From NCBI GenBank assembly GCA_031263025.1, contig JAISGO010000038.1:3038-67037 (forward strand): DNA of 64,000 nt. Reading direction: 5' to 3'. Shown here one piece after another: positions 33,608-62,963 of the stretch (positions are counted from its first letter, which is position 1; each line of letters opens with the position of its first letter). The notes beneath the pieces were generated by a model. It did no database searches, was not told where the DNA came from, and saw only the letters and a program-made list of their open reading frames with translations. A program made the translations under genes and the position numbers. The DNA comes from Coriobacteriales bacterium (lineage in GTDB: Bacteria > Actinomycetota > Coriobacteriia > Coriobacteriales > UBA8131).

Positions 33608-33670
33608 ATGAAACTTTATCATTATACCTCTGCCGATGCAGCTTTAAATATTCTTGAGCACGGATTGTAA
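33608..33670 (+). pseudogene. 5' fragment (17 codons + 3 foreign codons) of the DUF2971 gene split by the 29.3-kb insertion
   Basis: MKLYHYTSADAALNILE|HGL*; continues in frame at 62955 (see findings). Confidence 0.65.
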
Positions 33671-33871
33671 AACGAACTGTCACATCCCTCCTCAACGCCC
33701 TCATGCGACTATTCCGTTGTAAATTCGAGGCATTTTGCCGCCTCGTTGCGTTAAGTATAGCGCTTATTTTTGATTTGTCAAGGCACGTATTATTTTCCGT
33801 TATGAATAACGGTGTAGTGTGGCGGTTGTTTGTATAAAGCGCCAGGTTTCGCATAATCGAAAGTCGTTTAT

Positions 33872-33920
33872 GAAGCATATTTTATACTAGCATAGTATAA
33901 GCTAGTATAAAATATGCTTC
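33872..33920. repeat. perfect 20-bp inverted repeat spanning the 3' end of the left transposase gene
   Basis: GAAGCATATTTTATACTAGC (33872-33891) / GCTAGTATAAAATATGCTTC (33901-33920). Confidence 0.8.
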
Positions 33921-35053
33921 AACTCTTCTAAGAACTTCTCCTTAGCGCTTCGATAACCAAGAGACTTGCGCCATTTGTTGTTGACCTTTTCGGTAGCCCG
34001 CGCCACGCCTTCGGCCCCGTATTCTGCGATGTTGTGGCCCTTCCTTATCCCCGCCTGGCGCAGTAGTCCGTTGCAGTTCTCGTTCGACCCTCTCTCCCAA
34101 GAATGATAAGCATGCGCATAGTAACAGCGCGTCCGGCACATGTGGATAAAGCCGAGTAGCTCGTACACGGAGGTCTCAAAGTCGTCTGGCCTCGTGAACT
34201 CGGTTCCGTTATCCCAAGTGATGCTCTTGAATATCGCCTGGAATAGCTTACTTCCGATGGTAAGCTCTAAATCATCGAACCATGCGACGACATTCTCATG
34301 GTCTTTTGATTCCAGGTAGGCAGTCAGGTATATGCGGGTCTTGCGCTCAAGTAGGGTCAAGACGACCTCTTTCCTGCCGCCGCGCTTACCGACCACTAGA
34401 TCTCCCTCCCAATGACCGAACTCCTCTCGCGCTTCTACCTCGGCCGGCCGCTCGTCGATGGATTCGCCTCGGGTATACACCTGCTTGTAGGTGTACTTCT
34501 TATGCTTCGCCTTGCGCCTCATCTCGGCCATCGGCAATTTGTCTGCCGAGTAGCCGAGCTTACCATTGTTGGCGTAGTTGTAGATGGTCTTCGTGCAGAC
34601 CGTCTCCGGCAGCTTCCCTTCCATCCTGGCCCGGCCGCAAGCCTCATCAGGCGAGCGCCTGTTCTCGATTATCTCTTGCGCGTACCAAAGCATCGCCTTT
34701 CGGTGCTGCGGTCTTTCGAGTTTGAGCTTCGGTCCCTTTCTCGCCCAACGCGCTTCTGCTCTTCTTTGCGCCACGTCCTCATGATAATAAGGAACCTCCT
34801 CCAACGCTTCACCATCTGACCGGCGTACCCGCCGCACTTCGAGGATTGAACCGCGTTCTATCTCGCGATAGATGGTCTTGCGGCACCTACCTAAGATCTT
34901 GGCGATCCTTGCCACCGGAAGATGAAGCCGGTTCAGAAACAAGTCCAGCGCGTTACGTTCCTTGTCGTTGAAGTACTTACCTTTTCGCTTTCGAACGCCT
35001 TCTTCATCGAGTCCGTCAAGGTACTCCTCCGCAAGTCCGTATATCTTGGGCAA
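33902..35053 (-). CDS. IS30-family DDE transposase (left)
   Basis: HWEGDL, TWDNGTEF, WERGSNENCNGLLR catalytic motifs; N-terminal HTH; TTG start. Confidence 0.85.
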   Translation of the reverse strand: MPKIYGLAEEYLDGLDEEGVRKRKGKYFNDKERNALDLFLNRLHLPVARIAKILGRCRKTIYREIERGSILEVRRVRRSDGEALEEVPYYHEDVAQRRAEARWARKGPKLKLERPQHRKAMLWYAQEIIENRRSPDEACGRARMEGKLPETVCTKTIYNYANNGKLGYSADKLPMAEMRRKAKHKKYTYKQVYTRGESIDERPAEVEAREEFGHWEGDLVVGKRGGRKEVVLTLLERKTRIYLTAYLESKDHENVVAWFDDLELTIGSKLFQAIFKSITWDNGTEFTRPDDFETSVYELLGFIHMCRTRCYYAHAYHSWERGSNENCNGLLRQAGIRKGHNIAEYGAEGVARATEKVNNKWRKSLGYRSAKEKFLEELKHILY

Positions 35054-35173
35054 ATCAGTTCGTTCCTTTCAATGCATAGTATATGCTTTGCTATACTATG
35101 CGGCTATCCGTTTCTTCTATCAGTTTGTCGATAAGATTTTACCCCTGCGGCGCACACCTTTAGCGTTTTCCGC

Positions 35174-35208
35174 TTGACAATAGTATAGTATATGCTATAC
35201 TATACTAT
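35174..35208 (+). promoter_or_regulatory. parA(L) promoter TTGACA-16-TATACT overlapped by the palindrome ATAGTATAGTATA-TGC-TATACTATACTAT
   Basis: TTGACA 35174-35179; IR 35180-35192 / 35196-35208; related IR GCATAGTATA/TATACTATGC at 35074-35101. Confidence 0.6.
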
Positions 35209-35269
35209 GTTAGGCTACTATAGAATAGTCTTCAATGTACTATGCTATGCGTGAGAAAGAGAGGTATGT

Positions 35270-35818
35270 ATGAAAACCGTTTTGTTGGTGAACCAAAAGG
35301 GAGGAAGCGGCAAGACCACCATCGCTGATGAGTTGGTCTTCAACCTGGAGCGAAAAGGCCACAAGGTGACCTTCCAATCGCTTGACGCCCAAGGCGGTTC
35401 TATACACTATGGCAGTATGCCAGACGAGGACACCGAGTACCGCGTGATCGACTCGCCCGGCGCCATGCCGAAAGAGTTCAAGAACTGGTGTTCGGCGGCT
35501 GACATCATCATCATCCCGACCAAACCCGGGATTCCCGACCTTGCGCCTTTCAATCGTACCTACTCCGCCGCCCGGCAGGCCGCGCCGAAAGCGCACATCG
35601 GCATCGTCGTCAATTTCTACGACGCCAGGCGGGTGGTCGATCGCAACTTCGTGGAGGAGTTCGTTAAGCCGCTCATGTTAGACGTCTTTGCCTATATCCC
35701 TTCCACCACCCAGGTGGCCCGCGCCCAGGCTGAACAGATCTCCGTCTTTGACTATGACCGCAACTCGGAAGTGGCTAAGGCGTTTGACGCTCTCGCAGAC
35801 AAGGTGTTGTCTCTATAG
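35270..35818 (+). CDS. parA: ParA/Soj-type partition ATPase (left)
   Basis: deviant Walker A NQKGGSGKTT; ~45% identical to 60782..61333. Confidence 0.85.
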   Translation: MKTVLLVNQKGGSGKTTIADELVFNLERKGHKVTFQSLDAQGGSIHYGSMPDEDTEYRVIDSPGAMPKEFKNWCSAADIIIIPTKPGIPDLAPFNRTYSAARQAAPKAHIGIVVNFYDARRVVDRNFVEEFVKPLMLDVFAYIPSTTQVARAQAEQISVFDYDRNSEVAKAFDALADKVLSL

Positions 35819-35879
35819 CAAATACTATACTTTGCTATACTATGCTATTATATAATATGCTAAGAAAGGAATATGCTAA

Positions 35880-36224
35880 ATGAGTACAGACATTTTCGCA
35901 GAGTCGGCGCAAGCTGCTTTAGACGCACAAGACGAAGCGATGTACGCACCGGTCCCTATGGATAAGCCCGATACGAGCAAGCGCCCGAAACGTGCCTCCC
36001 ACAAGACCTCAAAGCCGACGACTTCCGCCAGGAAAGCGGACACCGCACCCGGCGAGTATCACGTCAAGCCTGCGAACGAGCGACGCGACTGTAAGGTGCT
36101 CGTTGGGTTCACTCCGTCCGAGCGCGAGCTACTCGAGCTCATTAAGACCGCCGAGGAACGTCCGCTCACACAGGTGATCGTCCGGGCGGTCAAGGAATAC
36201 TATAAGAACCACTACCAAGCCTAG
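35880..36224 (+). CDS. ribbon-helix-helix (CopG-like) protein
   Basis: C-terminal RRDCKVLVGFTPSERELLELIK..VIVRAVKEYYKNHY; ~50% identical to 60170..60385. Confidence 0.6.
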   Translation: MSTDIFAESAQAALDAQDEAMYAPVPMDKPDTSKRPKRASHKTSKPTTSARKADTAPGEYHVKPANERRDCKVLVGFTPSERELLELIKTAEERPLTQVIVRAVKEYYKNHYQA

Positions 36225-36240
36225 TTGAAGGAGGGGCAGC

Positions 36241-37644
36241 ATGAGACATAAGTCTCGCGAGAAGATAACCACCTATACCCTCATGAACAAGAACACCCCT
36301 GTTCTTGAGTTCGAGTATGCTCTTGCTTCCTCCACTATAACTGCTATCACCGCTCTGATTAACCCGGCGTATGCGCCTCTCGACGCATCACGCGCTTATA
36401 GCGATGGCGTGATAACCGAGGAATCCCTCAACGAGTGGTGGAGGAAGCGGGGCATCCCCTCTTCCCGTCAACATTTAGCAAACGCAGAAGACGTACTGCC
36501 GGCTTCGATGATGGAGCTACTTGAACACAACTATGGTCTATCGCTTTCCGATCAGTATTGGCTCAACGATTCGCGCTCGCCCAAGAGATGGGCCGAAGTG
36601 AACTTCTTCACCAATCCTTTTAGTGTCGACATCGGCCGTGCGCTTTTCGGCGGGGTGTCTTCGGAGGAGGCATTAAGCAACGACTTTTCCCTTATCTCAC
36701 CCGACGTTACCACCGGCGGGGTCTTACAAAAGAAGTGGATTATCGACGAAGGCCAACGCGTTCTCGTCAAAGGCGCCGAGGGCCAAGATCGCCAACAGGT
36801 CTTTAACGAGGTGATTGCCACCGAGCTGTATAGCAGATTGCTACCGCCAGATGAATACGTTACTTATAAGCTTATCAAAGAGGGCCATAAAGTCTATTGC
36901 GCATGCGGGGACATGATAGACATTGACGAAGAACTTGTAAGCGCAAAAGCGATTCGGCTGCATTTCGCCCGAGAGGAGAAAACGAGCGACTACGAACATC
37001 TCGTAAATTCTTACGAAAAGCTCGGCGTCAGCCATGCGGTTACAGCTACTGCCTTTTCCAAAATGCTTGTCTGCGACGCGCTTATGGCAAACGAGGATAG
37101 GCATACGGGTAACTTCGGCGTCATTAGGGACGTGAACAGTCTGGAGATCAAACGCATCGCCCCCCTTTGGGATACCGGTAACTCTCTCTTCTTCGACAAT
37201 GCCAGTCTTCTTTTGACACCTGGCTACGAATGGGAGTTCCGTTCAAAACCGTTTGCGGCGCGTATGAAGACCCAACTGGAATATGTGGACGATTATTCTT
37301 GGTATGACCCCAAATCCCTCAAAGGGTTCAGAGATTACGTGGCAGAGAAACTTTCGGAGATCGCACTTTATAAATCGTCTGGCCTAGACGTAGCGATTGC
37401 CGCTAGTGTCGATTGCCGCCGCGACTATATAGACAAGCAAGCTCGCGAATGGCAACTGAATCACAGCCGGAATCATATGTACAACGAAGCCCAAATCGCT
37501 AAACCCAGCGACGGGAAAAATCAAGTTCAACCGAACCTCGGTCCGCACCACATGGAGGACCTTGTTGCCCAAACGACAAGGGTTTCCGAAGCCCGCGAAG
37601 AGACGCGCGGAGGGCATGGCGGGCACGAAGAACCTAAACGCTAG
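36241..37644 (+). CDS. HipA-like Ser/Thr kinase toxin homolog with portable C-terminal tail
   Basis: HipA_C catalytic loop MANEDRHTGNFGVI; RBS GGAGGGG; tail NLGPHHMEDLVAQTTRVSEA. Confidence 0.7.
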   Translation: MRHKSREKITTYTLMNKNTPVLEFEYALASSTITAITALINPAYAPLDASRAYSDGVITEESLNEWWRKRGIPSSRQHLANAEDVLPASMMELLEHNYGLSLSDQYWLNDSRSPKRWAEVNFFTNPFSVDIGRALFGGVSSEEALSNDFSLISPDVTTGGVLQKKWIIDEGQRVLVKGAEGQDRQQVFNEVIATELYSRLLPPDEYVTYKLIKEGHKVYCACGDMIDIDEELVSAKAIRLHFAREEKTSDYEHLVNSYEKLGVSHAVTATAFSKMLVCDALMANEDRHTGNFGVIRDVNSLEIKRIAPLWDTGNSLFFDNASLLLTPGYEWEFRSKPFAARMKTQLEYVDDYSWYDPKSLKGFRDYVAEKLSEIALYKSSGLDVAIAASVDCRRDYIDKQAREWQLNHSRNHMYNEAQIAKPSDGKNQVQPNLGPHHMEDLVAQTTRVSEAREETRGGHGGHEEPKR

Positions 37645-37656
37645 AAGGAAACGGTG

Positions 37657-38460
37657 ATGACGACCCAAGACCTCATAAACGCGCTACTGGAGCAACGCAG
37701 GTTGCAGATAAACGGTAACGTCTACTGGCAGACCCAGATCGACCTGGCCTATAACTCGAATAGGATCGAGGGTTCCCAACTCACCCACGAACAGACCCGC
37801 TACATCTTCGAGACACAGACGATCTCCGGCGAAAACGTTCCCGTAGACGACGTGGTGGAGATGAAGAATCACTTCCGCATGTTCTATTACATGCTGGACC
37901 ATTTCAAGGAACCCGTGAGCGTCGAGACCATCCAAAGCTATCAGGCAATCCTCAAGGCCGGCACCTTTATGTCGGAGGACCCGAAGATGAACGTGGGGGG
38001 ATGGAAGCTCATCCCGAACGCGGTCGGCAACACCACTACGTCGCTACCGGGACAAGTCGATAACGACGTGAGGGCGCTCCTCGCCGCCTATAACAGGCAC
38101 GTCGAATCCGGCCACGAGGTGACGCTCACGCAGATCGCCGCCTTCCATGCACAGTTCGAGGCGATCCACCCCTTCCTCGACGGCAACGGGCGTACCGGTC
38201 GCATCATCATGTTCCACCAATGTCTCCAGGCGGGACTTATCCCGCCCATCGTCATGGACAAGACCAAGGCGGCCTACTACGCCGGCCTCGACCGCTGGCA
38301 GAACCATAACGACAGCAAACCGCTTCTGGACTATCTCGAAGAATGTCAGGCTGATTATCGCTCAGAATGCGAGTTCCTCCTTGAGGGCAAAGGCAAAGAT
38401 TTGAGTGGCCGCAAACCAGCCGATGTTGGCTACGAGGACATCTTCAAGGCGGACGAATAA
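37657..38460 (+). CDS. Fic-domain AMPylase, class II (N-terminal inhibitory motif)
   Basis: HPFLDGNGRTGR canonical Fic motif; SNRIEG matches (S/T)xxxE(G/N); starts 9-12 nt after the HipA-like stop. Confidence 0.85.
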   Translation: MTTQDLINALLEQRRLQINGNVYWQTQIDLAYNSNRIEGSQLTHEQTRYIFETQTISGENVPVDDVVEMKNHFRMFYYMLDHFKEPVSVETIQSYQAILKAGTFMSEDPKMNVGGWKLIPNAVGNTTTSLPGQVDNDVRALLAAYNRHVESGHEVTLTQIAAFHAQFEAIHPFLDGNGRTGRIIMFHQCLQAGLIPPIVMDKTKAAYYAGLDRWQNHNDSKPLLDYLEECQADYRSECEFLLEGKGKDLSGRKPADVGYEDIFKADE

Positions 38461-38810: not shown

Positions 38811-39242
38811 ATGGCAAGACCTCACTTGAAAGATAACGGCAGAAGCCGGAGGGTTCACTTCGCTGTCACTCCAAAGGAGTATTCGAAGATAAAGGTTCAG
38901 GCTAAAAGTCTGAACCTTACCATCTCCGCCTATATTCGTCAGCGTGCCCTCTCAGATGTTACTGTCTTTTACGCCGGTGACGACGAAGGTCTCGCTAAGA
39001 TCCGTTCACAGCTACTCCGCGCTTTCGCAAGGAACAATCAAGCGGTAAAGGCAATCAACTACATTAGTAACGGTCTTCGCGAAAACTACTTTCCAGATTC
39101 GATTAGGGAAGACCTCAAGAATTTCGCAAACGAGAACGCTCCTTATTTCTCCGATACCGCGAATCAAATCAGCGATTGCCTTGCCGGTATTTCTGACTTC
39201 TATCATTCATTCAACAAGCTTCTTAAAGAAGGGAGAATCTAA
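38811..39242 (+). CDS. mobC: MobC-type relaxosome accessory protein (left)
   Basis: RRVHFAVTPKEYSKIK..ISAYIRQRAL RHH; TAATG overlap with next gene. Confidence 0.65.
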   Translation: MARPHLKDNGRSRRVHFAVTPKEYSKIKVQAKSLNLTISAYIRQRALSDVTVFYAGDDEGLAKIRSQLLRAFARNNQAVKAINYISNGLRENYFPDSIREDLKNFANENAPYFSDTANQISDCLAGISDFYHSFNKLLKEGRI

Positions 39243-39742
39243 TGCTAGACATTTGCGCTAAAAGGGATACGCCTTACGTGTATCCAAGCCTGCGTAGTCT
39301 CATTTCCGAGGACTGTCGTTTCAGTCTCTTCAAGGCGGATAGTCTGCTTAAAGGAGACATAATCGGCGAGTATCATGCTAAACTTTGCGGTCTATTCTGG
39401 GGGAGGCAACCTCGTAGCGGTCGAGCTACGCCTCTAGTCGCCTGTCTCTTCCTTATCTATACGGCAGACGAAAATAACAAAATCGTTGAACTTGAAAATA
39501 AGTTCATTACCGCTTCCGCTTGGGATAATAACCTTCATAAACCTCTTTTCGACTCGCCTTCGGCACCGCCACCAGACGACACTCTAGCTTATTCTGATTG
39601 GCTCGCTTCATTGCATATTGACGAATCCGCAGAACCGCAAAAATATCTTGCACTTAGGAGCATCCCCATCGGTAGTTATATCACTTGCACATTCGCCCTC
39701 AACCGTAACGGGCATGGGGTACTTCGCGACTGGATCGTCTGA
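39242..39742 (+). CDS. hypothetical protein (left module only)
   Basis: translationally coupled on both sides (TAATG, TGATG); no counterpart between mobC and relaxase on the right. Confidence 0.5.
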   Translation: MLDICAKRDTPYVYPSLRSLISEDCRFSLFKADSLLKGDIIGEYHAKLCGLFWGRQPRSGRATPLVACLFLIYTADENNKIVELENKFITASAWDNNLHKPLFDSPSAPPPDDTLAYSDWLASLHIDESAEPQKYLALRSIPIGSYITCTFALNRNGHGVLRDWIV

Positions 39743-41244: not shown

Positions 41245-41270
41245 TCGCAAAAGACAGAAAGGAACCTACC

Positions 41271-43145: not shown

Positions 43146-43157
43146 TTGAATAAGGAA

Positions 43158-53305: not shown

Positions 53306-53312
53306 AAAAGAA

Positions 53313-54993: not shown

Positions 54994-55038
54994 AGTAGCC
55001 TCCTTAAAGCTTTATAGATTTTATATAAGAAAGTACGG

Positions 55039-55078: not shown

Positions 55079-55249
55079 ATTATAGCATTTATATCACTTC
55101 GCGTCAACTACACTACGCTTCCAAGATTACTCGCGTCCGGGCGCTCTTCGCTGGGGGCCGTCCCCGGCACCCACGCAACATTCAGTTGGTGGCAGGCTTT
55201 CAGTTGTCAAGGTGCAAATACCCAAGTCCTGGAAAGGACGGCGGGAGAT

Positions 55250-55660: not shown

Positions 55661-55715
55661 TTCAGGCTCCTTTCCTTTGGGGTCTTCCTGGCCCCGTTGT
55701 CAATGCCGATGTGAA

Positions 55716-55835
55716 GCCACGGCGCAAGTGGTTGCGTCAAGGGGACAAGGCCTCGCTTTAAGGAGCTGAGGCGATGGCCAGCCATCGTCCAGCGGTAATC
55801 GAGGTCGGCCCTTGCGCGGCCGCTCGCGCCGTGGC
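55716..55835 (-). other. 120-nt long-stem hairpin (right-module counterpart of 42208-42339), followed toward 56025 by a polypyrimidine (minus-strand) tract
   Basis: GCCACGGCGC (55716-55725) / GCGCCGTGGC (55826-55835); minus-strand loop ATTACCGCTGGACG..CCTCAGCTCCTTAAAG. Confidence 0.65.
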
Positions 55836-56025
55836 AAAACGTGAGGCTTGACAGCGGAGGCAGGAAAAGAGGGAAAGGTCTAAAAGATTGCAGGCGAACA
55901 AGATTATCGGTTCATGCAGCGGGTGTAAGAGGTTTGAAGCTGGGCGGGGAAAAGGGAGAGAGAGAGATTTGAAACCTCCCTCCCAACAGGGCAAAGTGAA
56001 GACAATGGTAATGCGTTCAGGTGGC

Positions 56026-56742: not shown

Positions 56743-56763
56743 GGTCGTTCCTTTCTCTTTGGA

Positions 56764-58185
56764 TTAACGGGCACCTCGAGAAGGCGAGCTGCGGCCTCTC
56801 GATTGCGGACTATGTTGCTGCGGCCGAGAACCGGAGGAGCTGTGGTGCCTTCCACTACCGCTTCCAAACATCTCGCGTTCCCTGTCCCGAGCCGTGCCTT
56901 TCTCATATTTGCCGACCCCTCTAGCCTTATTGCGGGCTGCAATGTCCCGAGCCTGTTCTCCAAGAGGCGATAACGGACGCTGGCTAACAGAGCGCGCCGG
57001 TAGCATCTTCGCTTCACTCGCGACTTTCTGGATGTTGGCAAGTTCGGCTTTCGCCGCCGGGTTCCGCACTTCGAGCTTGTCGAAGCCGGCAAGCGAGCAG
57101 ATACCGAAAGTGTTTATGAAGGATAGTGCTCGGGAGATGTCTTTAAGGCTGTAATTCGCACCAGGAGCGACTGTCGCGACCTTTCTTGCACCTCTAGGCC
57201 AAAGTTGTCCCGCGATGGCCGCAGCGGCGCTCTCAGGGCTCTTCTGACGCTTTATCTGGGCGTCGCGAGAGAAGTATCGTTTGATATTGCCCGAGCGAAA
57301 GTCATTGCCGAGTTTCCAGGCGCCGACCTGGCGGCTCGGCTGGTCGGTCAAGCGATAGATGAAGTCTCCCGCGTGTGCTTTCGAGGTTGAATAGTCGAGG
57401 CTTATGCCCATCACGTTCAAGGAGCGGACGTAGCCGGACATATCCTTGGCCGTCTCGTAGGCGATCCGTACCCGGTCAGCGATGTCCGACTTCCAGGAGT
57501 AGGTTCCGGTGCCTTCTGCACGTATCTCCGCGAAGCTGCGGTTACGCGGTGTCGTGAAGGCTTCCCGCTCGGGCTCCGGCACCTGGTAGTGTTCATCTCT
57601 TTCCTCCTCGGTACGTGAGAGCGTGCTCGCATAATCGTTGTTGAAATAGTGCAAGTGATGTGCGCGGGCGAGGTCGTTTAGGCTATGCCGGAGACTGCGG
57701 TTCGAGGCGTCGGAGATCTGTAGCCTCTTGCCGTTTGTGAGGTCTGTGTTGTTCACGATAACGTGGGCGTGGGCAACACCGTGGCTGCCGTCGTCATGGA
57801 CTATCACCACCCATTCGTAAAGCCCGAGGCTACCAGTATGTCCATCTGAGCCGAACCAAACCCGGCAATACTCATTCGCAAGCTCCAGCACATCATGGGT
57901 AGACAGCTTGTCGGCGGGATCAGGCGAGAGCAGGAGATGATTCGCCCTTACGCACTTACGTCCCCGCCATCCGGTATCGTTTCCGGCGGCCTTGCGGCTT
58001 GCGTCCATCTCTTTGTCCCAGCTGTCAAGGGGGTTGAGTGAGACCATGTTCTCCGCGTGAAAGGCACGGACGCGGTTACGGCCGAGGGCGAGGTTCTTGC
58101 GGTAGGCTTCCCCTTTGCCGAAGAGCAGGTAGTTGCGCACTCCAACGATAGAGCGATGCACCCTTCTTGCCCCGAACTTCGGCAT
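56764..58185 (-). CDS. MOBQ/MobA-VirD2-type relaxase (right)
   Basis: VHDDGSHGVAHAHVIVNNTD; N-terminal VRNYLLFGKGEAY. Confidence 0.8.
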   Translation of the reverse strand: MPKFGARRVHRSIVGVRNYLLFGKGEAYRKNLALGRNRVRAFHAENMVSLNPLDSWDKEMDASRKAAGNDTGWRGRKCVRANHLLLSPDPADKLSTHDVLELANEYCRVWFGSDGHTGSLGLYEWVVIVHDDGSHGVAHAHVIVNNTDLTNGKRLQISDASNRSLRHSLNDLARAHHLHYFNNDYASTLSRTEEERDEHYQVPEPEREAFTTPRNRSFAEIRAEGTGTYSWKSDIADRVRIAYETAKDMSGYVRSLNVMGISLDYSTSKAHAGDFIYRLTDQPSRQVGAWKLGNDFRSGNIKRYFSRDAQIKRQKSPESAAAAIAGQLWPRGARKVATVAPGANYSLKDISRALSFINTFGICSLAGFDKLEVRNPAAKAELANIQKVASEAKMLPARSVSQRPLSPLGEQARDIAARNKARGVGKYEKGTARDREREMFGSGSGRHHSSSGSRPQQHSPQSRGRSSPSRGAR

Positions 58186-58187
58186 GG

Positions 58188-58628
58188 CTAAAATCCTGCC
58201 TTCCGAAGCTTCGCGTCAACCGCGAACTGGAGAGCGACGACCCTCTGTTTCGCTTCCTTGATCTCTTGTTGGGTGGCGATGATCAGAGGCTTGGTGTCGC
58301 TTACGAAGTGGGCGAGGTCTTCGCTGATGGTTTCTACGGAGAAGCCCTCTTCGAGTCCGTAGGCGATCCGGTTGAGTGCTTTGATCCCTTGGGAGTTACG
58401 ATTGCCGGCAAGGGTGATGGCGTTTGACAGCTCCCTCATCGCCGCGATTAGCTGTCCCGATCCGAGTGGGTAATAATCGCCAGCGACATCGAGCGCGGAG
58501 GAACGCAGGAACTCGGAAAGAGACACGCCAGAAGCCGCTGCCGCAGCCTTTATCGCCTGGCGCTCAGCGACCGTCAAGCGAACAGCGAGGGGTGCCGTCT
58601 TAGGGGTGACTGTCTTGGGTCTCGCCAT
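58188..58628 (-). CDS. mobC: MobC-type relaxosome accessory protein (right)
   Basis: MARPKTV..LAVRLTVAERQAIK..LSEFLRSSAL; start set to ATG 58628 (both MobC copies start MARP). Confidence 0.65.
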   Translation of the reverse strand: MARPKTVTPKTAPLAVRLTVAERQAIKAAAAASGVSLSEFLRSSALDVAGDYYPLGSGQLIAAMRELSNAITLAGNRNSQGIKALNRIAYGLEEGFSVETISEDLAHFVSDTKPLIIATQQEIKEAKQRVVALQFAVDAKLRKAGF

Positions 58629-58920
58629 ATGTCTTGAAGCGACCTTTCCGTATCGTTTGCTACAAACGAACGGTCGGTCGCCAACTGGCGAGAGCTGGGC
58701 CGAATGTCTTTTGAGGGGTGTGGGGTCTCCCCCACGAAGCGCTAGGCGCTTTCCTCGGGGCGGCAAACCCGGCAGGGTTTTCAAAGCCCCCACGGCAGGA
58801 CTGCCGTGGAACCGGTCAGGGTTGCGTAGGCCCTCTCCGGTTCGCCTCCCGAGCTTTAAGCTCGAGCCAGTGGTATAAGCCGAGACGAAAACGCAGTTTT
58901 CGTATTCGGTTTATACGGTG

Positions 58921-59023: not shown

Positions 59024-59779
59024 TTATATCTCTGGTGGGTCTTGAATCGGTGGGTCTACAAAGAACCCGTCGTCATCGCGGTCAGGTTGATAGTGCGCTA
59101 CGATTCTGACTTCATCTGCTCTGGCGCTAAGGCGCGAGGGCTGCATTAAGCCGACCTTATCGTAGGCGGAAAGAAAGCGTGTCTCGAGAAGGGAATTGTC
59201 GATTAGTGGGTCGTCCTGGGTTCTCACTAGATAGTCGAACTCGTTTAGGCCCTTGTATTCAAAGGCGTTGCGGACGACCTCAACAGAGGCCTTCTCGAGG
59301 TCATCAAAATACTTTGCACAAATGAACGTCAGGTCGTAGAGGTCGCGGATACGGTCGCGGTGCAGATAGGCCGAGGCCTTCATCTTGCAAAGCTCGTCAA
59401 TAGAGTAGACGAGTATCCCGTTTATGGTTCTCGTATCGGTATCAAAGTCAATATCGCGGCGGCGATAGGAAAGCTCGACTTTAAGGGGGGTCGAAGGATC
59501 GCCATAGTTGATGAGTGCGCGCTTGACAGTATTGGTGTCCTTTCCGATGCGGTAATCATAGCTACTCTTCTCGCAGAATGTTGAAACAATCTTAAAAAGG
59601 GCGTCAGAGGACTTTTCATATCTCTCCCCCTCTCCGTCCAGGTCTATGTCAACGGAGTTGCGGTCGAGATCGTAGCAGAACATCAAAGCCGTGCCGCCCT
59701 TCAAAACGAAGCGGCTTGGATCGGCGTTGATGGCCGCGACAAGTTCCCTCATCACCGAAACATGTTTATCGAAGTCCAT
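59024..59779 (-). CDS. AbiEii/DUF1814-type nucleotidyltransferase toxin
   Basis: FVLKGGTALMFCY..RNSVDIDLD motifs. Confidence 0.75.
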   Translation of the reverse strand: MDFDKHVSVMRELVAAINADPSRFVLKGGTALMFCYDLDRNSVDIDLDGEGERYEKSSDALFKIVSTFCEKSSYDYRIGKDTNTVKRALINYGDPSTPLKVELSYRRRDIDFDTDTRTINGILVYSIDELCKMKASAYLHRDRIRDLYDLTFICAKYFDDLEKASVEVVRNAFEYKGLNEFDYLVRTQDDPLIDNSLLETRFLSAYDKVGLMQPSRLSARADEVRIVAHYQPDRDDDGFFVDPPIQDPPEI

Positions 59780-60167
59780 GATTCCCCTTGAAGTCTAGCC
59801 AAGTGCAGCCATATTCCTTGCCGACGGCACGGTCTATCTTGTCCCAGTTCGGCGACTGCCTGAGCGAAGTGAGCTTGTCGAAGAAAAGCGGCGTGTACCT
59901 CTCATTGCCGATGAAGTATTCACGGGTACCCTGGAAGGAGGAATAATAGCCCTCCTGTAAGAGGTCGATCGCGGCGCGGACGTGGTTGGCGACGGGAAGT
60001 CCGCAGGGGTTGTCGATTCCGTAGTTGATTCCCCATTTGCCGAGCGGAGACTCCGTGGTGTCGAAGACGTTAGGCTTGTCCCAATGCAGGGCTGGATAAT
60101 GCCAGTCTTGGAAGGTGTCCAAGGTATCCGGCAGGTTGAAGGCGAATGTCCCGGTGAGGTACTTCAT
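59766..60167 (-). CDS. hypothetical 133-aa protein overlapping abiEii by 14 nt (not AbiEi-like)
   Basis: coupled to abiEii; no recognisable wHTH; Trp/Tyr/Gly-rich. Confidence 0.5.
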   Translation of the reverse strand: MKYLTGTFAFNLPDTLDTFQDWHYPALHWDKPNVFDTTESPLGKWGINYGIDNPCGLPVANHVRAAIDLLQEGYYSSFQGTREYFIGNERYTPLFFDKLTSLRQSPNWDKIDRAVGKEYGCTWLDFKGNHGLR

Positions 60168-60169
60168 CT

Positions 60170-60385
60170 CTAATCGGCTATATCCTGCTCATGATGATTT
60201 TGATAATACTCACGAAGCGAACGCACGATGATACGCGTCATGGGTCTATCTTCCTCCGCACTTAGGGTGTCAAGCATATCGCGTTCCTCCGGAGTGAATC
60301 CCATCGTGATCTTCGAGTCACGCCGCTCGCTCGCAGGCTTCTTGCGATGATCGCGGGGTTTGTCCTGGCTTGCAACTTGCGACAT
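60170..60385 (-). CDS. ribbon-helix-helix protein (homolog of 35880..36224)
   Basis: RRDSKITMGFTPEERDMLDTL..IIVRSLREYYQNHH. Confidence 0.6.
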   Translation of the reverse strand: MSQVASQDKPRDHRKKPASERRDSKITMGFTPEERDMLDTLSAEEDRPMTRIIVRSLREYYQNHHEQDIAD

Positions 60386-60525
60386 TACCGGCCTTTCAGT
60401 TAATAGCTTCTATTCAATCATAGTCTATCATAGAATAGTAGCTAATTTTATAGCAAGCTATAAAAGATATGTTTATTGCAAAGATATAAAAGCAATAATT
60501 ATATAAATATAGCTAAGGAGTCTTA

Positions 60526-60789
60526 CTAATCTTTCCTTATCAGGTCAGCGATGATTAGGTCGCGGACATAAGCCGAGAAAGAAGAATGGAGTTTCGCTGC
60601 CTTTGCCTTCGCCTGCCATTTGAGCTTATCAGGCATCCTTAGAATGACCGAGACATTCTCCTCTTTCGTGCCGTCCGGGGGCAGGGGCAGGCGTACCCGA
60701 CTCCCTTCCACTTTCTGATACTTGCGTTTCTGCTCTGTGGCGGCTTTCGTGAATATCTCAGCAGATTTCTTCTCAGCCATTTCAACCAA
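60526..60789 (-). CDS. ParG-like RHH partition protein
   Basis: overlaps the parA(R) stop by 8 nt; VSVILRMPDKLKWQAKAKAAKLHSSFSAYVRDLI. Confidence 0.55.
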   Translation of the reverse strand: MVEMAEKKSAEIFTKAATEQKRKYQKVEGSRVRLPLPPDGTKEENVSVILRMPDKLKWQAKAKAAKLHSSFSAYVRDLIIADLIRKD

Positions 60790-61333
60790 CCTCCTTGATT
60801 ATCCTGTCGCAAAGCTCCTCGAAAGCAGCTGCGGCCTTATTCTTCTTGTTGAACTCATATATTGACATCTGAGCGGCCTGTGCCTGGACGATAGCTGTCG
60901 TGGTAGGAATAGTCGTCCATACCGGCATCTCGCAGTTAGCGAGGTAACGGAGGAAGTCGCTATCAGCGAGGCGCCGTTTATCGTAGAAGTTCACGGCTAT
61001 GCCAAGGTGGGCTTTAGTCTTGGACTTCACTGCCTTGTCCCAGCAGCGCATAAGCGGAATCTGGTCTAAGGTGGACGCCCGTGTCGGCATCACGATGAGA
61101 TCAGCCGCGCGGCACCACTCAGCAAAGTCTTTGTGGAGTGTAGGCGGAGTATCTACGATCAAAAAATCATCGTCGTCTTTGGGGAGGGTTGGCGCATGTA
61201 GGACGCCACCTTGCGGGTCGAGGTTTTGGAAGCTCACCTTGTAGCCCCGGCGTTCCAGGGCAAACGCGATCTCATCAGAGACTGTGGTTTTCCCTACCCC
61301 ACCTTTTTGATTGGCTACAAGAACCGTCTTCAT
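60782..61333 (-). CDS. parA: ParA/Soj-type partition ATPase (right)
   Basis: NQKGGVGKTT deviant Walker A. Confidence 0.85.
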   Translation of the reverse strand: MKTVLVANQKGGVGKTTVSDEIAFALERRGYKVSFQNLDPQGGVLHAPTLPKDDDDFLIVDTPPTLHKDFAEWCRAADLIVMPTRASTLDQIPLMRCWDKAVKSKTKAHLGIAVNFYDKRRLADSDFLRYLANCEMPVWTTIPTTTAIVQAQAAQMSIYEFNKKNKAAAAFEELCDRIIKEVG

Positions 61334-61526
61334 GTCCGCTCCTCACGTGCAGATATGTATAAAAGAATAATTATATCATTTATAGAATTATAAAGAAGAT
61401 ATACATGAGTGTCAAACATGCAGGAAAAGACAAAATAATTTCAAAAATTATATAATTGCAATAAATATAGAATTATTACAATTATATAAAGCTAATAAAA
61501 TCCACTACGAACAGAGGAGGCGAACA

Positions 61527-62672
61527 TTGGCCGGACTTACCATAGAACTTGAGCAATATCTTGACGAAGGAAGCTGCAATCGTCCAGGTAAATACCTTAA
61601 CGCGCTCGACCGGCATTTCATAGACATAGCCCTAAATGAATTGAAAATGCCGGTTTCCAAAATCGCGAAGACCTTGGAACGCAGCCGACGGACAATCCAG
61701 AGGGAGATTAGGAGAGGTTCCACTTGGGAAGCGGCCGAAAAAAATACTTATGCTATTGGCAGAAAAAGTAAACAAGATAGGGTGCTGAAGTACCACTGGG
61801 AGGCAGCGGAACGCCTTTTTCGTAAAAGGCAGAAAAATAAAGGATATGGTCTGAAACTAGCCGACGAGAAGTACATGGACGCTGCCGTTTGGTATCACAA
61901 GATGATAGTCGTTGAAGGCCGGTCGCCTGATGAAGTGTGCGGTCGGGCCCGAATTGAAGGGAAGTTGTCGGCGTATGTGTGTTTTAAGACGCTTTACAAC
62001 TACTCGCATAACGGCGTACTTGGGTACAGCGATAAGAACCTGCCGATGGCAGAAATCGAGCGGAAAGCTCAAAAGAAAAGATATACCTATAAGCAGAAGT
62101 ATGTCCGAGGGGAGTCGATTGAGTTCAGGTCGGATGCGGTAAACAAAAGACAGGAGTTCGGGCACTGGGAAGGTGATTTGATTGTAGGTAAGCGTGGCGG
62201 GAAGAAGGAGGTAATCTTAACCTTGGTCGAAAGGAAGACCCGCTATCTTATCGCGGTAGTCCTCGCTTCAAAGGAACATGAGAATGTAGCCGCGTGGTTT
62301 GATCAAGTGGAGCTTATCATCGGGGAAGAGCGCTTCGCCAATATTTTCCGCTCTGTCACCTGGGACAATGGATCGGAGTTCGCCCGTCCGATTGACTTTG
62401 AGACGTCGATATTCGAGCTCCTCGGCATAAGCGGTTCATATCGCACTAGATGTTTCTATGCTCATGCCTACACGTCCTGGGAAAGAGGCTCTAACGAGAA
62501 CTGCAATGGTCTTATTCGCAGGAACGGCATTAAGAAAGGCCATGACATAGAAGAATATGGACAAGAAGTTGTAAGACAGGTTGCTGAGAAGATTAACAAC
62601 AAATGGCGCAAGATCCTAGGGTATCATTCAGCAAAGGAGTATTTCGCAAGAGAAATGAAACTTATAGAATGA
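61527..62672 (+). CDS. IS30-family DDE transposase (right)
   Basis: HWEGDL, TWDNGSEF, WERGSNENCNGLIR; TTG start after AGAGGAGG; ~60% identical to the left copy. Confidence 0.85.
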   Translation: MAGLTIELEQYLDEGSCNRPGKYLNALDRHFIDIALNELKMPVSKIAKTLERSRRTIQREIRRGSTWEAAEKNTYAIGRKSKQDRVLKYHWEAAERLFRKRQKNKGYGLKLADEKYMDAAVWYHKMIVVEGRSPDEVCGRARIEGKLSAYVCFKTLYNYSHNGVLGYSDKNLPMAEIERKAQKKRYTYKQKYVRGESIEFRSDAVNKRQEFGHWEGDLIVGKRGGKKEVILTLVERKTRYLIAVVLASKEHENVAAWFDQVELIIGEERFANIFRSVTWDNGSEFARPIDFETSIFELLGISGSYRTRCFYAHAYTSWERGSNENCNGLIRRNGIKKGHDIEEYGQEVVRQVAEKINNKWRKILGYHSAKEYFAREMKLIE

Positions 62673-62963
62673 TTGGAAATATAGCTTTATTTCTTTTCAT
62701 AAAAGTAATAATTATATAATTATAAAGAATATATACTTGCGATAAGTATATACAATCTCGCAGTAACTGCTACCTATATTGTCGTTTTTTCTTTACCAGA
62801 AAATTTTACAAAAAACCGTCTAAACGGTTGACATGTTTTCAAAAATCAGGTAAAGTACTCCGTAAATAGTGAGTTTTAATGAGCTTGGCAAAGGTATTTG
62901 AAAATTAAAGGGTAAGGTTCCGGCTGCGCCAGTTTCTTTTACAATATTCTTGAGAAACAAGAA

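What the first reader, a model, noticed from the sequence alone, without database searches (positions are those of the whole stretch)
33647..62954. 29.3-kb element interrupts a DUF2971 gene: 12-bp direct repeat, imperfect terminal IRs, ORF restored on excision
Two pieces of one gene flank the element.
- 33608-33658 encodes MKLYHYTSADAALNILE, then runs into foreign sequence (HGL*).
- At 62943 the frame of the DUF2971 ORF reads NILEKQEMWMTDTQFMSDKSEF...

AATATTCTTGAG occurs at 33647-33658 and again at 62943-62954. Deleting 33659-62954 yields one uninterrupted 338-codon ORF with the usual DUF2971 N-terminus (xLYHYTS...L.IL....LW.....F.(N/S)D..EF).

The element ends carry a 16/21 imperfect IR. It reads GTAAAACGAACTGTCACATCC at 33667-33687, and GTAAAAGAAACTGGCGCAGCC as the reverse complement of 62922-62942. 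The left IR is set back 8 nt from the repeat.

A 12-bp duplication is long for IS30-type elements, which usually make 2-3 bp. As far as I recall, a few members such as IS1630 make long variable duplications.
Basis: seen in the sequence. Interest (0 to 1): 0.7.

Follow-up and report, generated by a model that had tools for sequence, protein, structure and literature searches.

The report
Two-headed IS30-type mobilizable element splits gene
A 29.3-kb mobile element has inserted into a DUF2971 gene of a Coriobacteriales chromosome; it consists of two diverged, mirror-image mobilizable modules, each with an IS30-type transposase at its outer end, around a block of cell-surface protein genes, which makes it an unusual but recognisable variant of known mobile DNA.

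Summary
AATATTCTTGAG occurs only at 33647-33658 and 62943-62954. Removing 33659-62954 gives a 338-codon ORF. Its N-terminus has exactly the motif spacing found in more than 120 distant DUF2971 proteins.

The insert is not an IS. It is two diverged modules in mirror orientation: L (33.66-42.85 kb) and R (55.25-62.95 kb). Each runs from an outward-facing IS30-family transposase through ParA, a toxin module, NikA, a MobA/VirD2 relaxase and a conserved hairpin to UPF0102. About 12.4 kb of adhesin, pilin and sortase genes lie between them. There is no type IV secretion system.

The only IR-like ends are the two outer, transposase-proximal tips (19/24 identical). No inner ends are detectable. The best reading is that the whole insert transposed as one unit, as a "two-headed" integrative mobilizable element (IME).

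Single-headed relatives with the same backbone sit in different chromosomal sites elsewhere, so the family is mobile.

The duplication is literally 12 bp, but the right tip is ambiguous (62942 or about 62950). The true duplication may be only about 4 bp next to a target that resembles the element's end.

No empty site or second copy exists in the databases searched. Novelty: a new variant of a known kind. Interest: moderate.

The parts
33608..33658 (+). 5' fragment of the interrupted DUF2971 gene (17 codons, MKLYHYTSADAALNILE)
   Evidence: Translation. The N-terminal motif and its spacing match more than 120 distant DUF2971 proteins.
33647..33658 (.). Left copy of the 12-bp direct repeat AATATTCTTGAG (target duplication; minimal alternative TGAG, 33655-33658)
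   Evidence: Two copies only, 0 expected by chance. Tip analysis.
33659..33687 (+). Left terminus: 5 outer nt (CACGG, 33659-33663) followed by the IR core ATTGTAAAACGAACTGTCACATCC (33664-33687). It lies 243 nt beyond the TnpL stop codon.
   Evidence: The same block-plus-6-nt layout is seen in relatives L082, L083 and L085.
33902..35053 (-). TnpL, an IS30-family DDE transposase (383 aa) facing outward
   Evidence: Pfam HTH_38 + rve. NCBIfam NF033563 at 207 bits, cutoff 80. HWEGD / DNGxEF / WERGSNENCNG motifs are invariant between L and R.
35270..38460 (+). Module L maintenance genes: ParA (35270-35818), orf114 (35880-36224, paralogue of R orf71), HipA_C-like protein (36241-37644), Fic (37654-38460)
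   Evidence: Pfam. Paralogue pairs.
38811..42014 (+). Module L mobilisation genes: NikA-like (38811-39242), orf166, MobA/VirD2-type relaxase (39742-41244), orf247 (41271-42014). The candidate oriT/operator region lies just upstream and outside this span: GGGGGAGACCCC at 38748 and the TTACCG/CGGTAA IR at 38538/38570.
   Evidence: Pfam. Pairing with module R. The 12-mer occurs only twice in the window, each time upstream of a nikA gene.
42175..42817 (+). Conserved ~190-nt branched hairpin (42175-42375) followed by the UPF0102-like gene (42398-42817); inner edge of module L
   Evidence: ssDNA fold -64 kcal/mol, z = -7.8. 15 of 65 pairs show compensatory changes against the R copy. UPF0102 L and R are 37-38% identical.
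42818..55249 (.). Central block. Repeats A'/A (42877-43146 ~ 53460-53729, 93%) and B'/B (43133-43379 ~ 43833-44077, 89%); Fic2 (43943-44788, -); adhesin with fn3 (44815-46563, -); orf159; orf384; SpaA/LPXTG pilin-like protein (48392-51460, -); SpaA-like paralogue (51328-52533, +); class B sortase (52472-53305, +); paralogous MBG adhesin (53728-54993, -)
   Evidence: Pfam, NCBIfam, self-comparisons. Logan contig L107 confirms continuity from 53651 into module R.
55250..58793 (-). Module R: UPF0102 (55250-55660), conserved hairpin (55675-55875), orf238 (56026-56742), relaxase (56764-58185), NikA-like (58188-58793, with GGGGGAGACCCC at 58722)
   Evidence: Pfam. Hairpin fold -52.6 kcal/mol, z = -5.3..
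59024..61333 (-). Module R maintenance genes: AbiEii toxin (59024-59779), orf133, orf71 (60170-60385), orf87, ParA (60782-61333)
   Evidence: Pfam. ParA-R is 65% identical to the ParA of the P0007 element but only 43% to ParA-L.
61527..62672 (+). TnpR, an IS30-family DDE transposase (381 aa) facing outward; 57% identical to TnpL
   Evidence: Pfam. NCBIfam 195 bits. L and R are each other's nearest relatives among 5.8 billion clusters; the next best is 44-46%.
62919..62950 (-). Right terminus: IR core (reverse complement of 62919-62945 reads ATTGTAAAAGAAACTGGCGCAGCC...). The tip is either 62942 (12-bp duplication) or about 62950 (4-bp duplication).
62943..62954 (.). Right copy of the 12-bp direct repeat
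62955..63920 (+). 3' part of the DUF2971 gene (annotated elsewhere as a 318-aa protein starting at M21 of the joined ORF)

Best explanation
The 29.3-kb insert is one transposition unit: a composite, "two-headed" integrative mobilizable element (IME).

**Anatomy**
- It consists of two long-diverged members of one element family, joined tail to tail.
- Each contributes an outward-facing IS30-family DDE transposase about 245-275 nt from its tip, a ParA partition system, a toxin/abortive-infection module, a NikA-like accessory protein, a MobA/VirD2-type relaxase, a conserved hairpin and a UPF0102 nuclease-like gene.
- About 12.4 kb of LPXTG adhesin, pilin and sortase genes lie between them.

**Proposed mechanism (inferred from family knowledge)**
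1. One or both transposases bind the two outer, mutually similar IRs.
2. The element is copied out or excised as a circle, as in the IS30-type copy-out-paste-in pathway.
3. NikA and the relaxase nick an oriT. Candidates lie upstream of each nikA gene.
4. The single strand is exported through the type IV secretion system of a co-resident conjugative element, because the insert has none of its own.
5. In the new cell the circle is maintained briefly (ParA, toxin modules). The transposase then pastes it into AT-rich DNA.

**This insertion**
- It went into codon 14-17 of a DUF2971 gene, in a low-GC toxin-antitoxin/restriction island of a Coriobacteriales chromosome.
- It left a direct repeat that is literally 12 bp.

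**Shown versus inferred**
- Shown: the interruption, the repeat, the IRs, the gene content, the mirror symmetry, the absence of inner ends, and the mobility of single-headed relatives.
- Inferred: movement as a unit, circle formation, mobilisation in trans, and which transposase acts on which end.
For: **Interruption and repeat:**

**Independent assembly:** both junctions and the R-to-centre continuity are reproduced in separate assemblies.

**Mirror symmetry of seven gene pairs plus a structured element**:
- Tnp 57%
- ParA 43%
- orf114/orf71 44%
- NikA 28%
- relaxase 37%
- orf247/orf238 36-38%
- UPF0102 37-38%

**Transposases:** both are bona fide, full-length IS30-family proteins with conserved catalytic motifs.

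**Ends**
- The two tips are each other's only partners. TipL versus tipR scores 14 against a null of 5.7 +/- 1.0. Every comparison of a tip with the interior sits at the null level.
- Both tips lie at the family-typical 207-285 nt beyond a transposase stop codon.

**The backbone is a recurrent, mobile family**
- The P0012 element lies in two different sites (L085/L087 versus L086).
- Element E3 lies in two different sites (L089 versus L090).
- P0007 and P0006 elements have Tnp divergent from ParA.
- L014, from an Eggerthellaceae genome, has Tnp plus relaxase.
- A relative sits at the end of a T4SS-bearing ICE (L084).

**No conjugation pore:** no T4SS or coupling-protein domains in the insert or elsewhere in the window.

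**Target:** GC 0.35-0.36, against 0.59 for the host and 0.54 for the element.

**Literature**
- IS30 elements use copy-out-paste-in and form composite transposons (PMC5821093).
- An IS30-like transposase serves as the ICE recombinase in ICE6013 (PMC7913919).
Against: - No second copy, empty site or circle junction was found. The protein search found no intact allele. Exact look-ups found only the same sample. The metagenome scan for both termini returned only chance hits. Movement as a unit therefore rests on the flanking repeat and the lack of inner ends.
- No complete single-headed relative could be recovered, so the far end of this family is unknown. Inner ends that do not resemble the outer tips cannot be excluded.
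- A 12-bp duplication is atypical for IS30 elements, where 2 bp is typical (PMC5821093).
- The two tips are asymmetric by 8 nt under the 12-bp reading.
- The stretches 35176-53650 (including the L-to-centre link near 42.8-43.4 kb, which holds 93%-identical repeats) and 61430-62786 are supported only by the MAG contig.
- It has not been tested whether a transposase 57% identical to its partner can act on an end that is 19/24 identical.
Confidence: 0.65

Rival explanations
1. Same element, different junction chemistry. The real target duplication is short (about 4 bp, TGAG, or 2-3 bp as in typical IS30 elements). The right tip lies at about 62950. The other 8 nt of the "12-bp repeat" (AATATTCT) belong to the element's right tip, which happens to match, or was selected to match, the target. 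The insertion would then have gone next to a sequence that mimics the element's own end, or the circle junction recombined with a matching 12-mer.
For: - Closely related ends share TTTTACAA followed by about 6 more nt: winL TCCGTG; the P0007 element GTTGCA, with the L082 contig breaking exactly there; L083 CTCCCA at its contig end; L085/L086 diverging after CTCCCAGA.
- By that rule the R tip is TTTTACAA+TATTCT, ending at 62950.
- This removes the 8-nt asymmetry between the ends and gives an IS30-like short duplication (2 bp typical, PMC5821093).
- With one indel, the target's left flank (C)TTTA-AATATTCT matches the R end (C)TTTTACAATATTCT over 12-13 nt (read).
Against: - It needs an 8-nt identity between tip and target, about 1.5e-5 by chance, unless targeting is guided by homology or end-likeness. 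That has not been shown for this family.
- Element E3's tip begins directly with GTCAAAA and has no outer extension, so tips without the extra 8 nt may exist in the family.
- Long duplications do occur in IS30-type IS1630, at 16-26 bp (PMC3317919).
- The joined ORF is identical under both readings, so it cannot discriminate.
Confidence: 0.4
2. Accretion in place. One module inserted first into the DUF2971 gene and made the repeat. The second inserted later into or beside it. Deletions or decay then erased the inner ends, so the structure never moved as a unit.
For: - The modules have discordant histories. ParA-R is 65% identical to the ParA of the P0007 element but 43% to ParA-L, while that element's Tnp is closer to L. 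They therefore began as separate elements.
- Repeats and gene remnants in the centre (A/A', B/B', a Fic 3' remnant) show past rearrangement.
- Accretion of IMEs is common (PMC5704250).
Against: - Both outer junctions are transposase-proximal tips at the family-typical distance, and each directly abuts a repeat copy.
- A first-inserted element would leave its own far end at one junction.
- No far-end remnant is detectable anywhere in the interior.
- The two repeat copies are still identical, 12/12.
Confidence: 0.15
3. Assembly artefact. The metagenome assembler joined two different insertions, or two strains, into one contig, so the 29.3-kb structure does not exist in any one genome.
For: - The source is a MAG.
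- The interior contains 93%-identical 270-bp repeats that can mislead assemblers.
- Logan contigs break at 35175, 53651, 61429 and 62787.
Against: - Both junctions, and 7.8 kb running from ParA-R into the central adhesin, are reproduced by an independent assembler.
- A chimera would require two different elements inserted at exactly the same 12 bp in opposite orientations.
Confidence: 0.05
4. Not an IME family. Two ordinary IS30-family insertion sequences captured a piece of mobilizable plasmid DNA, giving a classical composite transposon with IS arms.
For: - IS30-family ISs do form composite transposons such as Tn6330 (PMC5821093).
- ParA plus relaxase is a plasmid-like backbone.
Against: - There are no IS-sized units. 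No inner IR lies next to either transposase gene.
- The layout of Tnp divergent from ParA, then NikA and relaxase, recurs in at least five unrelated loci, with the transposase always at the element's tip.
- Ordinary IS30 ISs are only 34-41% identical to these transposases.
Confidence: 0.05

Closest known systems
ICE6013 family of Staphylococcus (an ICE that uses an IS30-like DDE transposase as its recombinase)
   Same: - An IS30-type DDE transposase, rather than a tyrosine or serine recombinase, integrates a conjugation-related element.
- It has low target specificity and disrupts genes (PMC7913919, PMC7563843, PMC3175761).
- A relative of TnpL also sits at the end of a T4SS-bearing ICE (L084).
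   Different: - ICE6013 is self-transmissible, with a MobT (Rep_trans) relaxase and its own pore (PMC7563843).
- This insert has MobA/VirD2-type relaxases with NikA and no T4SS.
- It has two transposases and two backbones in mirror orientation.
- Its direct repeat is 12 bp. ICE6013's 3-bp duplication is my recollection and was not checked here.
DDE-transposase IMEs MTnSag1 / tISCpe8
   Same: They are mobilizable elements bounded by about 25-bp terminal IRs and a target duplication, and are integrated by a DDE transposase (PMC5704250).
   Different: - Those use IS1595-family transposases and make 8-bp repeats.
- This insert uses the IS30 family.
- The 2017 review lists those two as the only DDE IMEs known at the time.
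Composite transposons with inverted arms (Tn10/Tn5 type) and the IS30-family composite Tn6330
   Same: Two related transposase-bearing arms flank cargo. The outer ends act together, and a single duplication flanks the whole structure.
   Different: - The arms here are about 9-kb mobilizable modules, not ISs.
- They are only 37-57% identical in protein sequence.
- They have no detectable inner ends.
- Tn6330 has directly repeated ISApl1 copies and 2-bp duplications (PMC5821093).
IS1630 (IS30-type IS of Mycoplasma fermentans)
   Same: It is an IS30-type transposase associated with long flanking duplications of 16-26 bp (PMC3317919).
   Different: - IS1630 is a 1.2-1.4-kb IS.
- According to the title of Calcutt et al. 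1999, cited in that paper, it duplicates inverted-repeat targets.
- The 12-mer here is not an inverted repeat. Only AATATT, and a nearby TTCTTG-N5-CAAGAA, are palindromic (read).
Tyrosine-recombinase IMEs with a NikA-relaxase module (for example the element on L188)
   Same: The closest outside relaxase (30% identical) sits in a NikA-x-relaxase-x module of the same layout.
   Different: That element integrates with a phage-type tyrosine integrase. Here the integration module is an IS30-type transposase.

Membership tests
IS30-family transposable elements | IS30-family DDE transposase (N-terminal HTH plus rve catalytic core) | tested here: met
   NCBIfam NF033563 at 207 and 195 bits, cutoff 80. 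Pfam HTH_38 + rve. HWEGD / DNGxEF / WERGSNENCNG motifs are conserved.
IS30-family transposable elements | Terminal inverted repeats of about 20-30 bp | tested here: met
   19/24 identical; score 14 against a null of 5.7 +/- 1.0.
IS30-family transposable elements | Short (typically 2-3 bp) target duplication | tested here: inconclusive
   The literal repeat is 12 bp. A 4-bp reading is possible if the right tip is at about 62950. 2 bp is typical (PMC5821093) and 16-26 bp occurs in IS1630 (PMC3317919).
IS30-family transposable elements | Simple IS: about 1-1.5 kb, with the transposase as the only gene | tested here: not met
   29.3 kb with about 30 genes. It is a transposon or IME that uses an IS30-type enzyme, not an IS.
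Integrative mobilizable element (IME) | Encodes its own integration/excision enzyme | tested here: met
   Two intact IS30-type transposases at the tips. Their activity was not tested.
Integrative mobilizable element (IME) | Carries a relaxase and/or oriT | tested here: met
   Two PF03432 relaxases, each with a NikA-like partner. oriT is only a candidate: GGGGGAGACCCC at 38748 and 58722.
Integrative mobilizable element (IME) | Lacks a mating-pore (T4SS) and coupling-protein module | tested here: met
   No VirB4, VirD4, TcpA or PrgI domains in any ORF of the insert, nor in window 1-32 kb.
Integrative mobilizable element (IME) | Excises and is transferred with a helper element | not testable with these tools
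   This needs reads showing a circle junction, or mating experiments.
ICE6013 family | IS30-like DDE transposase as the recombinase | tested here: met
   PMC7913919.
ICE6013 family | MobT (Rep_trans) relaxase and its own conjugation module | tested here: not met
   The relaxases are MobA/VirD2 type (PF03432) and there is no conjugation module. The ICE6013 features are taken from PMC7563843.
Classical composite transposon | Two copies of one IS, each with its own pair of ends, flanking cargo | tested here: not met
   The arms are about 9-kb modules that are 37-57% identical in protein. No inner ends are detectable.
Classical composite transposon | One target duplication flanking the whole structure | tested here: met
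DUF2971 (PF11185) protein, the interrupted host gene | PF11185 domain plus the family's N-terminal LYHYT...LW...F.ND..E motif at fixed spacing | tested here: met
   PF11185 at E = 4e-8. Spacing 18 and 27, as in 123 of 129 and 128 of 134 relatives.

The most novel reading that the evidence does not exclude
L and R represent a so far undescribed family of IS30-transposase-driven IMEs and ICEs of Coriobacteriia and Bacillota. The backbone is Tnp, ParA, NikA, a MobA-type relaxase, UPF0102, and a conserved hairpin that may act in the transferred single strand.

This locus would show a new way of building larger elements: two family members fused tail to tail, lost their inner ends, and now transpose as a single two-headed unit. 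Insertion either makes an unusually long (12-bp) duplication or is guided by similarity between the element's tip and the target.
Probability: 0.35. Interest if true: 0.6.

Novelty: new variant of a known kind. Interest (0 to 1): 0.5.

Why it matters
- **Rarity of DDE-driven IMEs.** IMEs are thought to be very common, yet almost all described ones integrate with tyrosine or serine recombinases. A 2017 review listed only two DDE-transposase IMEs, both of IS1595 type (PMC5704250). The known IS30-type case, ICE6013, is a self-transmissible staphylococcal ICE.
- **A recurring backbone.** This locus and the relatives recovered here indicate a backbone that pairs an IS30-type transposase with a plasmid-like ParA/NikA/relaxase set in anaerobic Gram-positives. 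The same transposase clade also serves at least one T4SS-bearing ICE.
- **Growth by fusion.** The two-headed architecture suggests that such elements can fuse, shed their inner ends and carry large cargo between them. Here the cargo is an adhesin, pilin and sortase cluster that could change cell-surface properties.
- **A testable mechanistic question.** The ambiguity between a 12-bp and a 4-bp duplication bears on how IS30-type enzymes choose targets and where they cut.
- **Effect on the host.** The insertion inactivates a DUF2971 gene in a toxin-antitoxin/restriction island. This may or may not matter to the host.

Tried and rejected
1. **Empty site.** Searching 5.8 billion protein clusters with the joined protein found only the truncated protein itself and relatives at 29% identity or less. 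phmmer against 1.84 billion representatives found none above 36%.
2. **Other copies of the element.**
   - Exact-protein look-ups found only contigs of the same sample.
   - A degenerate scan of metagenome contigs for both termini gave nine unrelated chance hits.
   - The genome-contig scan with the Tnp alignment returned only ordinary IS30 elements at 34-41%, plus one Eggerthellaceae element.
   - Plasmid tblastn gave at most 36%.
   - Viral contigs carried IS30-like genes but not the backbone.
3. **Inner ends of L and R.** Three searches were all at chance level: a mismatch scan of the 21-mers, a core-motif scan, and local alignment of 45-nt tips against the inner boundaries and the whole interior, with shuffles.
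4. **Nested insertion leaving the 8 nt CACGGATT as a remnant.** No second copy of that sequence, or of any k-mer of 10 or more from the junction, occurs in the interior.
5. **Far end and duplication length from relatives.**
   - L085 and L086 start at the same internal point, which does not resemble the tip.
   - E3 has no inverted tip within 16 kb.
   - L014's element runs beyond the 10-kb flank.
   - The P0274 relaxase turned out to belong to a tyrosine-integrase IME.
6. **Hairpin in E3.** The shared 11-mer hits were a duplicated GC-rich ORF, not the hairpin.
7. **Known RNA families.** No Rfam family matched in 33-64 kb.
8. **Unnamed ORFs.** NCBIfam gave nothing for ten ORFs.
9. **ICE6013 comparison.** The primary papers and the pSK53 record are not held, so no direct sequence comparison was possible.
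10. **tRNA-linked integration.** There are no tRNA genes in the window.

Full report
**1. The observation**

The 12-mer AATATTCTTGAG occurs exactly twice in the 64-kb window, at 33647-33658 and 62943-62954. None of 100 dinucleotide-preserving shuffles contained any match.

The left copy ends a 17-codon ORF fragment, MKLYHYTSADAALNILE, which then runs into HGL*. The right copy is read in frame as NILE, followed by KQEMWMTDTQFMSDKSEF.... Deleting 33659-62954 yields a 338-codon ORF.

The terminal inverted repeat is 16/21 as reported. It extends to 19/24 when the adjoining ATT is included. Its local-alignment score is 14, against 5.7 +/- 1.0 (maximum 8.5) for shuffles. The left IR is set back 8 nt (CACGGATT) from the repeat.

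Both junctions are reproduced base for base in Logan contigs of run SRR14710920 (L001 and L088). A third contig, L107, covers window 53651-61429.

**2. Is the gene really interrupted?**

No empty site could be found. Among 5.8 billion protein clusters, the only close match to the joined protein is the truncated 318-aa product itself, from a Coriobacteriales MAG.

The family provides an internal test instead:
- A phmmer search of 1.84 billion representative proteins gave 3990 hits. Almost all of the best 150 align from query residue 1-3 in one stretch that runs through the junction.
- Of 149 relatives, 136 carry the [LIVMF][YFW]H[YF][TS] motif near their N-terminus.
- The distance from that motif to the conserved [LIVMF]W is 18 residues in 123 of 129.
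- The distance to [NSD]D..E is 27 residues in 128 of 134.
- The joined ORF, with one copy of the 12-mer, has exactly 18 and 27 (examples).

The gene was split by an insertion that duplicated, or matched, 12 bp.

**3. What the insert is**

ORF listing and Pfam/NCBIfam scans, together with self-comparison, show a mirror-symmetric structure.

| Feature | Module L (33.66-42.85 kb, genes mostly on +) | Module R (55.25-62.95 kb, genes mostly on -) | Identity |
|---|---|---|---|
| IS30-family transposase, outward-facing | 33902-35053 (-) | 61527-62672 (+) | 57% |
| ParA | 35270-35818 | 60782-61333 | 43% |
| Small ORF | orf114 | orf71 | 44% |
| Toxin module | HipA_C-like, Fic | AbiEii | different genes |
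| NikA-like | 38811-39242 | 58188-58793 | 28% |
| Extra ORF | orf166 | none | - |
| MobA/VirD2 relaxase | 39742-41244 | 56764-58185 | 37% |
| Downstream ORF | orf247 | orf238 | 36-38% |
| UPF0102-like | 42398-42817 | 55250-55660 | 37-38% |

The central 12.4 kb holds:
- two paralogous adhesins;
- a 1022-aa SpaA/LPXTG protein and a shorter paralogue;
- a class B sortase;
- a second Fic gene;
- two sets of direct repeats (93% and 89% identical).

No ORF has a T4SS or coupling-protein domain. The rest of the window is ordinary chromosome (Obg, PriA, GltX and others).

GC content is 0.54 for the insert, 0.59 for the host and 0.35-0.36 for the target neighbourhood. That neighbourhood is a low-GC island with MazEF, Mrr, DUF2971 and, beyond the window, HipBA.

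**4. The two heads**

Both transposases pass the NCBIfam IS30 equivalog model at 207 and 195 bits, against a cutoff of 80. Both keep the HWEGD, DNGxEF and WERGSNENCNG motifs. I take these to be the DDE triad regions from my own knowledge of the family.

They are each other's nearest relatives in the large protein database. The next best are 44-46% identical.

The modules are nevertheless not a recent internal duplication. ParA-R is 65% identical to the ParA of another element (the P0007 element), but only 43% to ParA-L. That element's transposase is closer to L (46%) than to R (39%). L and R are therefore two long-separated, mosaic members of one family.

**5. A family of such elements**

The layout of an outward-facing IS30-type transposase, then ParA on the other strand, then NikA and a relaxase, recurs elsewhere:
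- **P0007 element** (L081, and L082 from the same sample as the window) and **P0006 element** (L083).
- **P0012 element** (L085-L087).
- **Element E3** (L089-L096), which also has UPF0102.
- **L014**, in an Eggerthellaceae genome.
- **L084**, where a relative sits at the end of a T4SS-bearing ICE.

Two of these lie in different chromosomal contexts. This fixes their transposase-proximal tips at 230 nt and 207 nt beyond the stop codon. The window's tips lie at 243 nt, and at 270 or 278 nt.

The closest outside relaxase belongs to an IME with a tyrosine integrase. The mobilisation module is therefore exchanged between integrase types.

In the literature held here:
- ICE6013 is the known element that uses an IS30-like transposase as its recombinase. 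It has a MobT relaxase and its own conjugation genes.
- The 2017 IME review lists only two DDE-transposase IMEs, both IS1595-type.
- I found no description of an IS30-type IME.

**6. One unit or two elements?**

Each outer junction is a transposase-proximal tip that directly abuts a copy of the repeat. Neither tip has any partner inside the element. Mismatch scans, core-motif scans and shuffle-controlled local alignments against the inner boundaries and the whole interior all stay at chance level.

A nested-insertion model would make the 8 nt CACGGATT a remnant of R's far end. It finds no support, because no k-mer of 10 nt or more from the junction recurs inside.

The simplest reading is that the two outer tips act as the two ends of one transposon, and that the whole 29.3 kb was inserted in one event.

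Geometrically this resembles an inverted-arm composite transposon. The arms, however, are about 9-kb mobilizable modules without inner ends. I therefore call it a two-headed composite IME rather than a classical composite.

The caveats are:
- I could not recover the far end of any single-headed relative.
- Window 35176-53650 and 61430-62786 are supported only by the MAG assembly.
- No second copy or circle junction is available.

**7. How long is the duplication?**

Read literally, it is 12 bp. That is long for the IS30 family, where 2 bp is typical. There is precedent in IS1630, at 16-26 bp.

Comparison of tips complicates this. Read outward:
- winL is ...TTTTACAA+TCCGTG, then the repeat.
- The P0007 element is ...TTTTACAA+GTTGCA, with contig L082 ending exactly there.
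- L083 ends ...TTCTTAAA+CTCCCA.
- L085 and L086 diverge after ...TTTTTCAA+CTCCCAGA.

By this rule the R tip would be ...TTTTACAA+TATTCT, ending at 62950. The duplication would then be TGAG. The remaining AATATTCT would be an 8-nt identity between the element's tip and the target, or 12-13 nt with one indel.

That is very unlikely by chance (about 1.5e-5). It would make sense if targets resembling the element's end are preferred, or if a circle junction recombined with a matching 12-mer.

Against this, E3's tip starts directly with GTCAAAA, so tips without the extension may exist.

Both readings give the same restored ORF. I put about 60:40 on the literal 12-bp duplication against a short one. 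A circle-junction read or a second insertion site would decide it.

**8. Likely mode of action**

Steps 2-5 below are inferred. The element content is shown.
1. The transposase or transposases bind the outer IRs.
2. A circular copy is made by the IS30-type copy-out-paste-in route.
3. NikA and the relaxase nick an oriT.
4. A helper element's T4SS transfers the strand.
5. ParA and the toxin modules stabilise the circle until it is pasted into AT-rich DNA.

Candidate cis sites upstream of each nikA gene:
- The 12-mer GGGGGAGACCCC occurs only twice in the window (0.008 expected), at 38748 (+) and 58722 (-).
- A TTACCG/CGGTAA inverted repeat has arms starting 32 nt apart, at 38538/38570 and at 58930/58962.

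**9. A side finding: conserved hairpin**

Immediately 5' of both UPF0102 genes lies a branched hairpin of about 190 nt.
- Its loops are conserved: CAAGGGCCG, TTACCGCTGGACG, GCCTCAGCTCCyTAA and CCCTTGAC.
- Its stems have diverged but stay complementary.
- As ssDNA the folds are -64 kcal/mol (z = -7.8) and -52.6 kcal/mol (z = -5.3).
- Of 65 predicted pairs, 15 changed on both sides and none is broken outside an indel.
- No Rfam family matches.

It could be a single-strand promoter, a priming site or origin used after transfer, or a 5'-UTR RNA. With only two sequences, this remains a lead.

**10. Verdict**

Refinements:
- The element is a two-headed composite of two IS30-transposase IMEs carrying surface-protein genes.
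- The IR is 19/24.
- The 12-bp duplication is plausible but not proven.

It is a new variant of known kinds (DDE-driven IMEs and ICEs, and composite transposons), not a new category. Interest is moderate, at about 0.5.

Noticed in passing
window 42175-42375 (+) and 55675-55875 (-): A conserved ~190-nt branched hairpin lies 25-32 nt upstream of the UPF0102 start codon in both modules. The loops are conserved and the stems co-vary: 15 of 65 pairs changed on both sides and none is broken outside an indel. It folds strongly as ssDNA (z = -7.8 and -5.3). There is no Rfam match, and it was not found in any other fetched locus. It may be a single-strand promoter, priming site or origin, or a 5'-UTR RNA.
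   Followed up: partly
window 38748-38759 (+) and 58722-58733 (-); also 38538/38570 and 58930/58962: GGGGGAGACCCC occurs exactly twice in the window (0.008 expected), each time upstream of a nikA-like gene. Both regions also have a TTACCG/CGGTAA inverted repeat whose arms start 32 nt apart. These are candidate oriT or operator sites.
   Followed up: partly
window 33866-33921 and 35065-35244; 61358-61490 and 62690-62770: Module-specific AT-rich iterons bracket each transposase gene, in the Tnp-ParA intergenic region and just after the Tnp stop codon. Module L has GCATAGTATA(T/A)GC and a 24-nt palindrome. Module R has AATTATATAATT-type repeats. The downstream regions of relatives L081 and L083 look similar. 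They may be the centromere or operator of the ParA system, or sub-terminal transposase sites.
   Followed up: partly
window 63936-63956 (-): A 15/21 match to the R terminal IR (GTTTAAGAAACTGGGGAATTC) lies right after the DUF2971 stop codon, at the edge of the low-GC island. Two other 6-mismatch hits occur elsewhere in the window, so this is at chance level.
   Followed up: no
window ~30.5-33.6 kb and 62.95-64 kb (continuing in L088 and L001): The interrupted gene lies in a low-GC (0.35-0.47) island of defence and toxin-antitoxin genes in a 0.59-GC chromosome. The island holds MazE/PemK, an Mrr_cat restriction endonuclease (32160-33605), DUF2971 and, beyond the window, HipA/HTH.
   Followed up: partly
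window 42877-43146 ~ 53460-53729; 43133-43379 ~ 43833-44077: Direct repeats of 270 bp (93% identical) and 247 bp (89% identical) occur inside the central block. The second includes a remnant of a Fic gene's 3' end. The two adhesins (44815-46563 and 53728-54993) are paralogues. These are signs of past duplication or recombination, and a possible source of assembly breaks: Logan contig L107 ends at 53651.
   Followed up: partly
L108-L187 (IMG/VR contigs): Many prophage-like contigs carry an IS30-like transposase gene (36-40% identical to TnpL) within about 0.3-1.5 kb of a contig end. This fits the use of IS30-type enzymes as phage integrases, as reported in bioRxiv 10.1101/214213.
   Followed up: no
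L082 (Logan, SRR14710920): The same metagenome holds a third family member, the P0007 element. Its transposase is 46% identical to TnpL and its ParA 65% identical to ParA-R. The contig ends exactly at the predicted element tip, which suggests several insertion contexts in that community.
   Followed up: partly
L089 3806-4186 and 11770-12150: Element E3 contains two near-identical copies of a GC-rich 126-aa ORF about 8 kb apart. One lies next to its UPF0102 gene.
   Followed up: no
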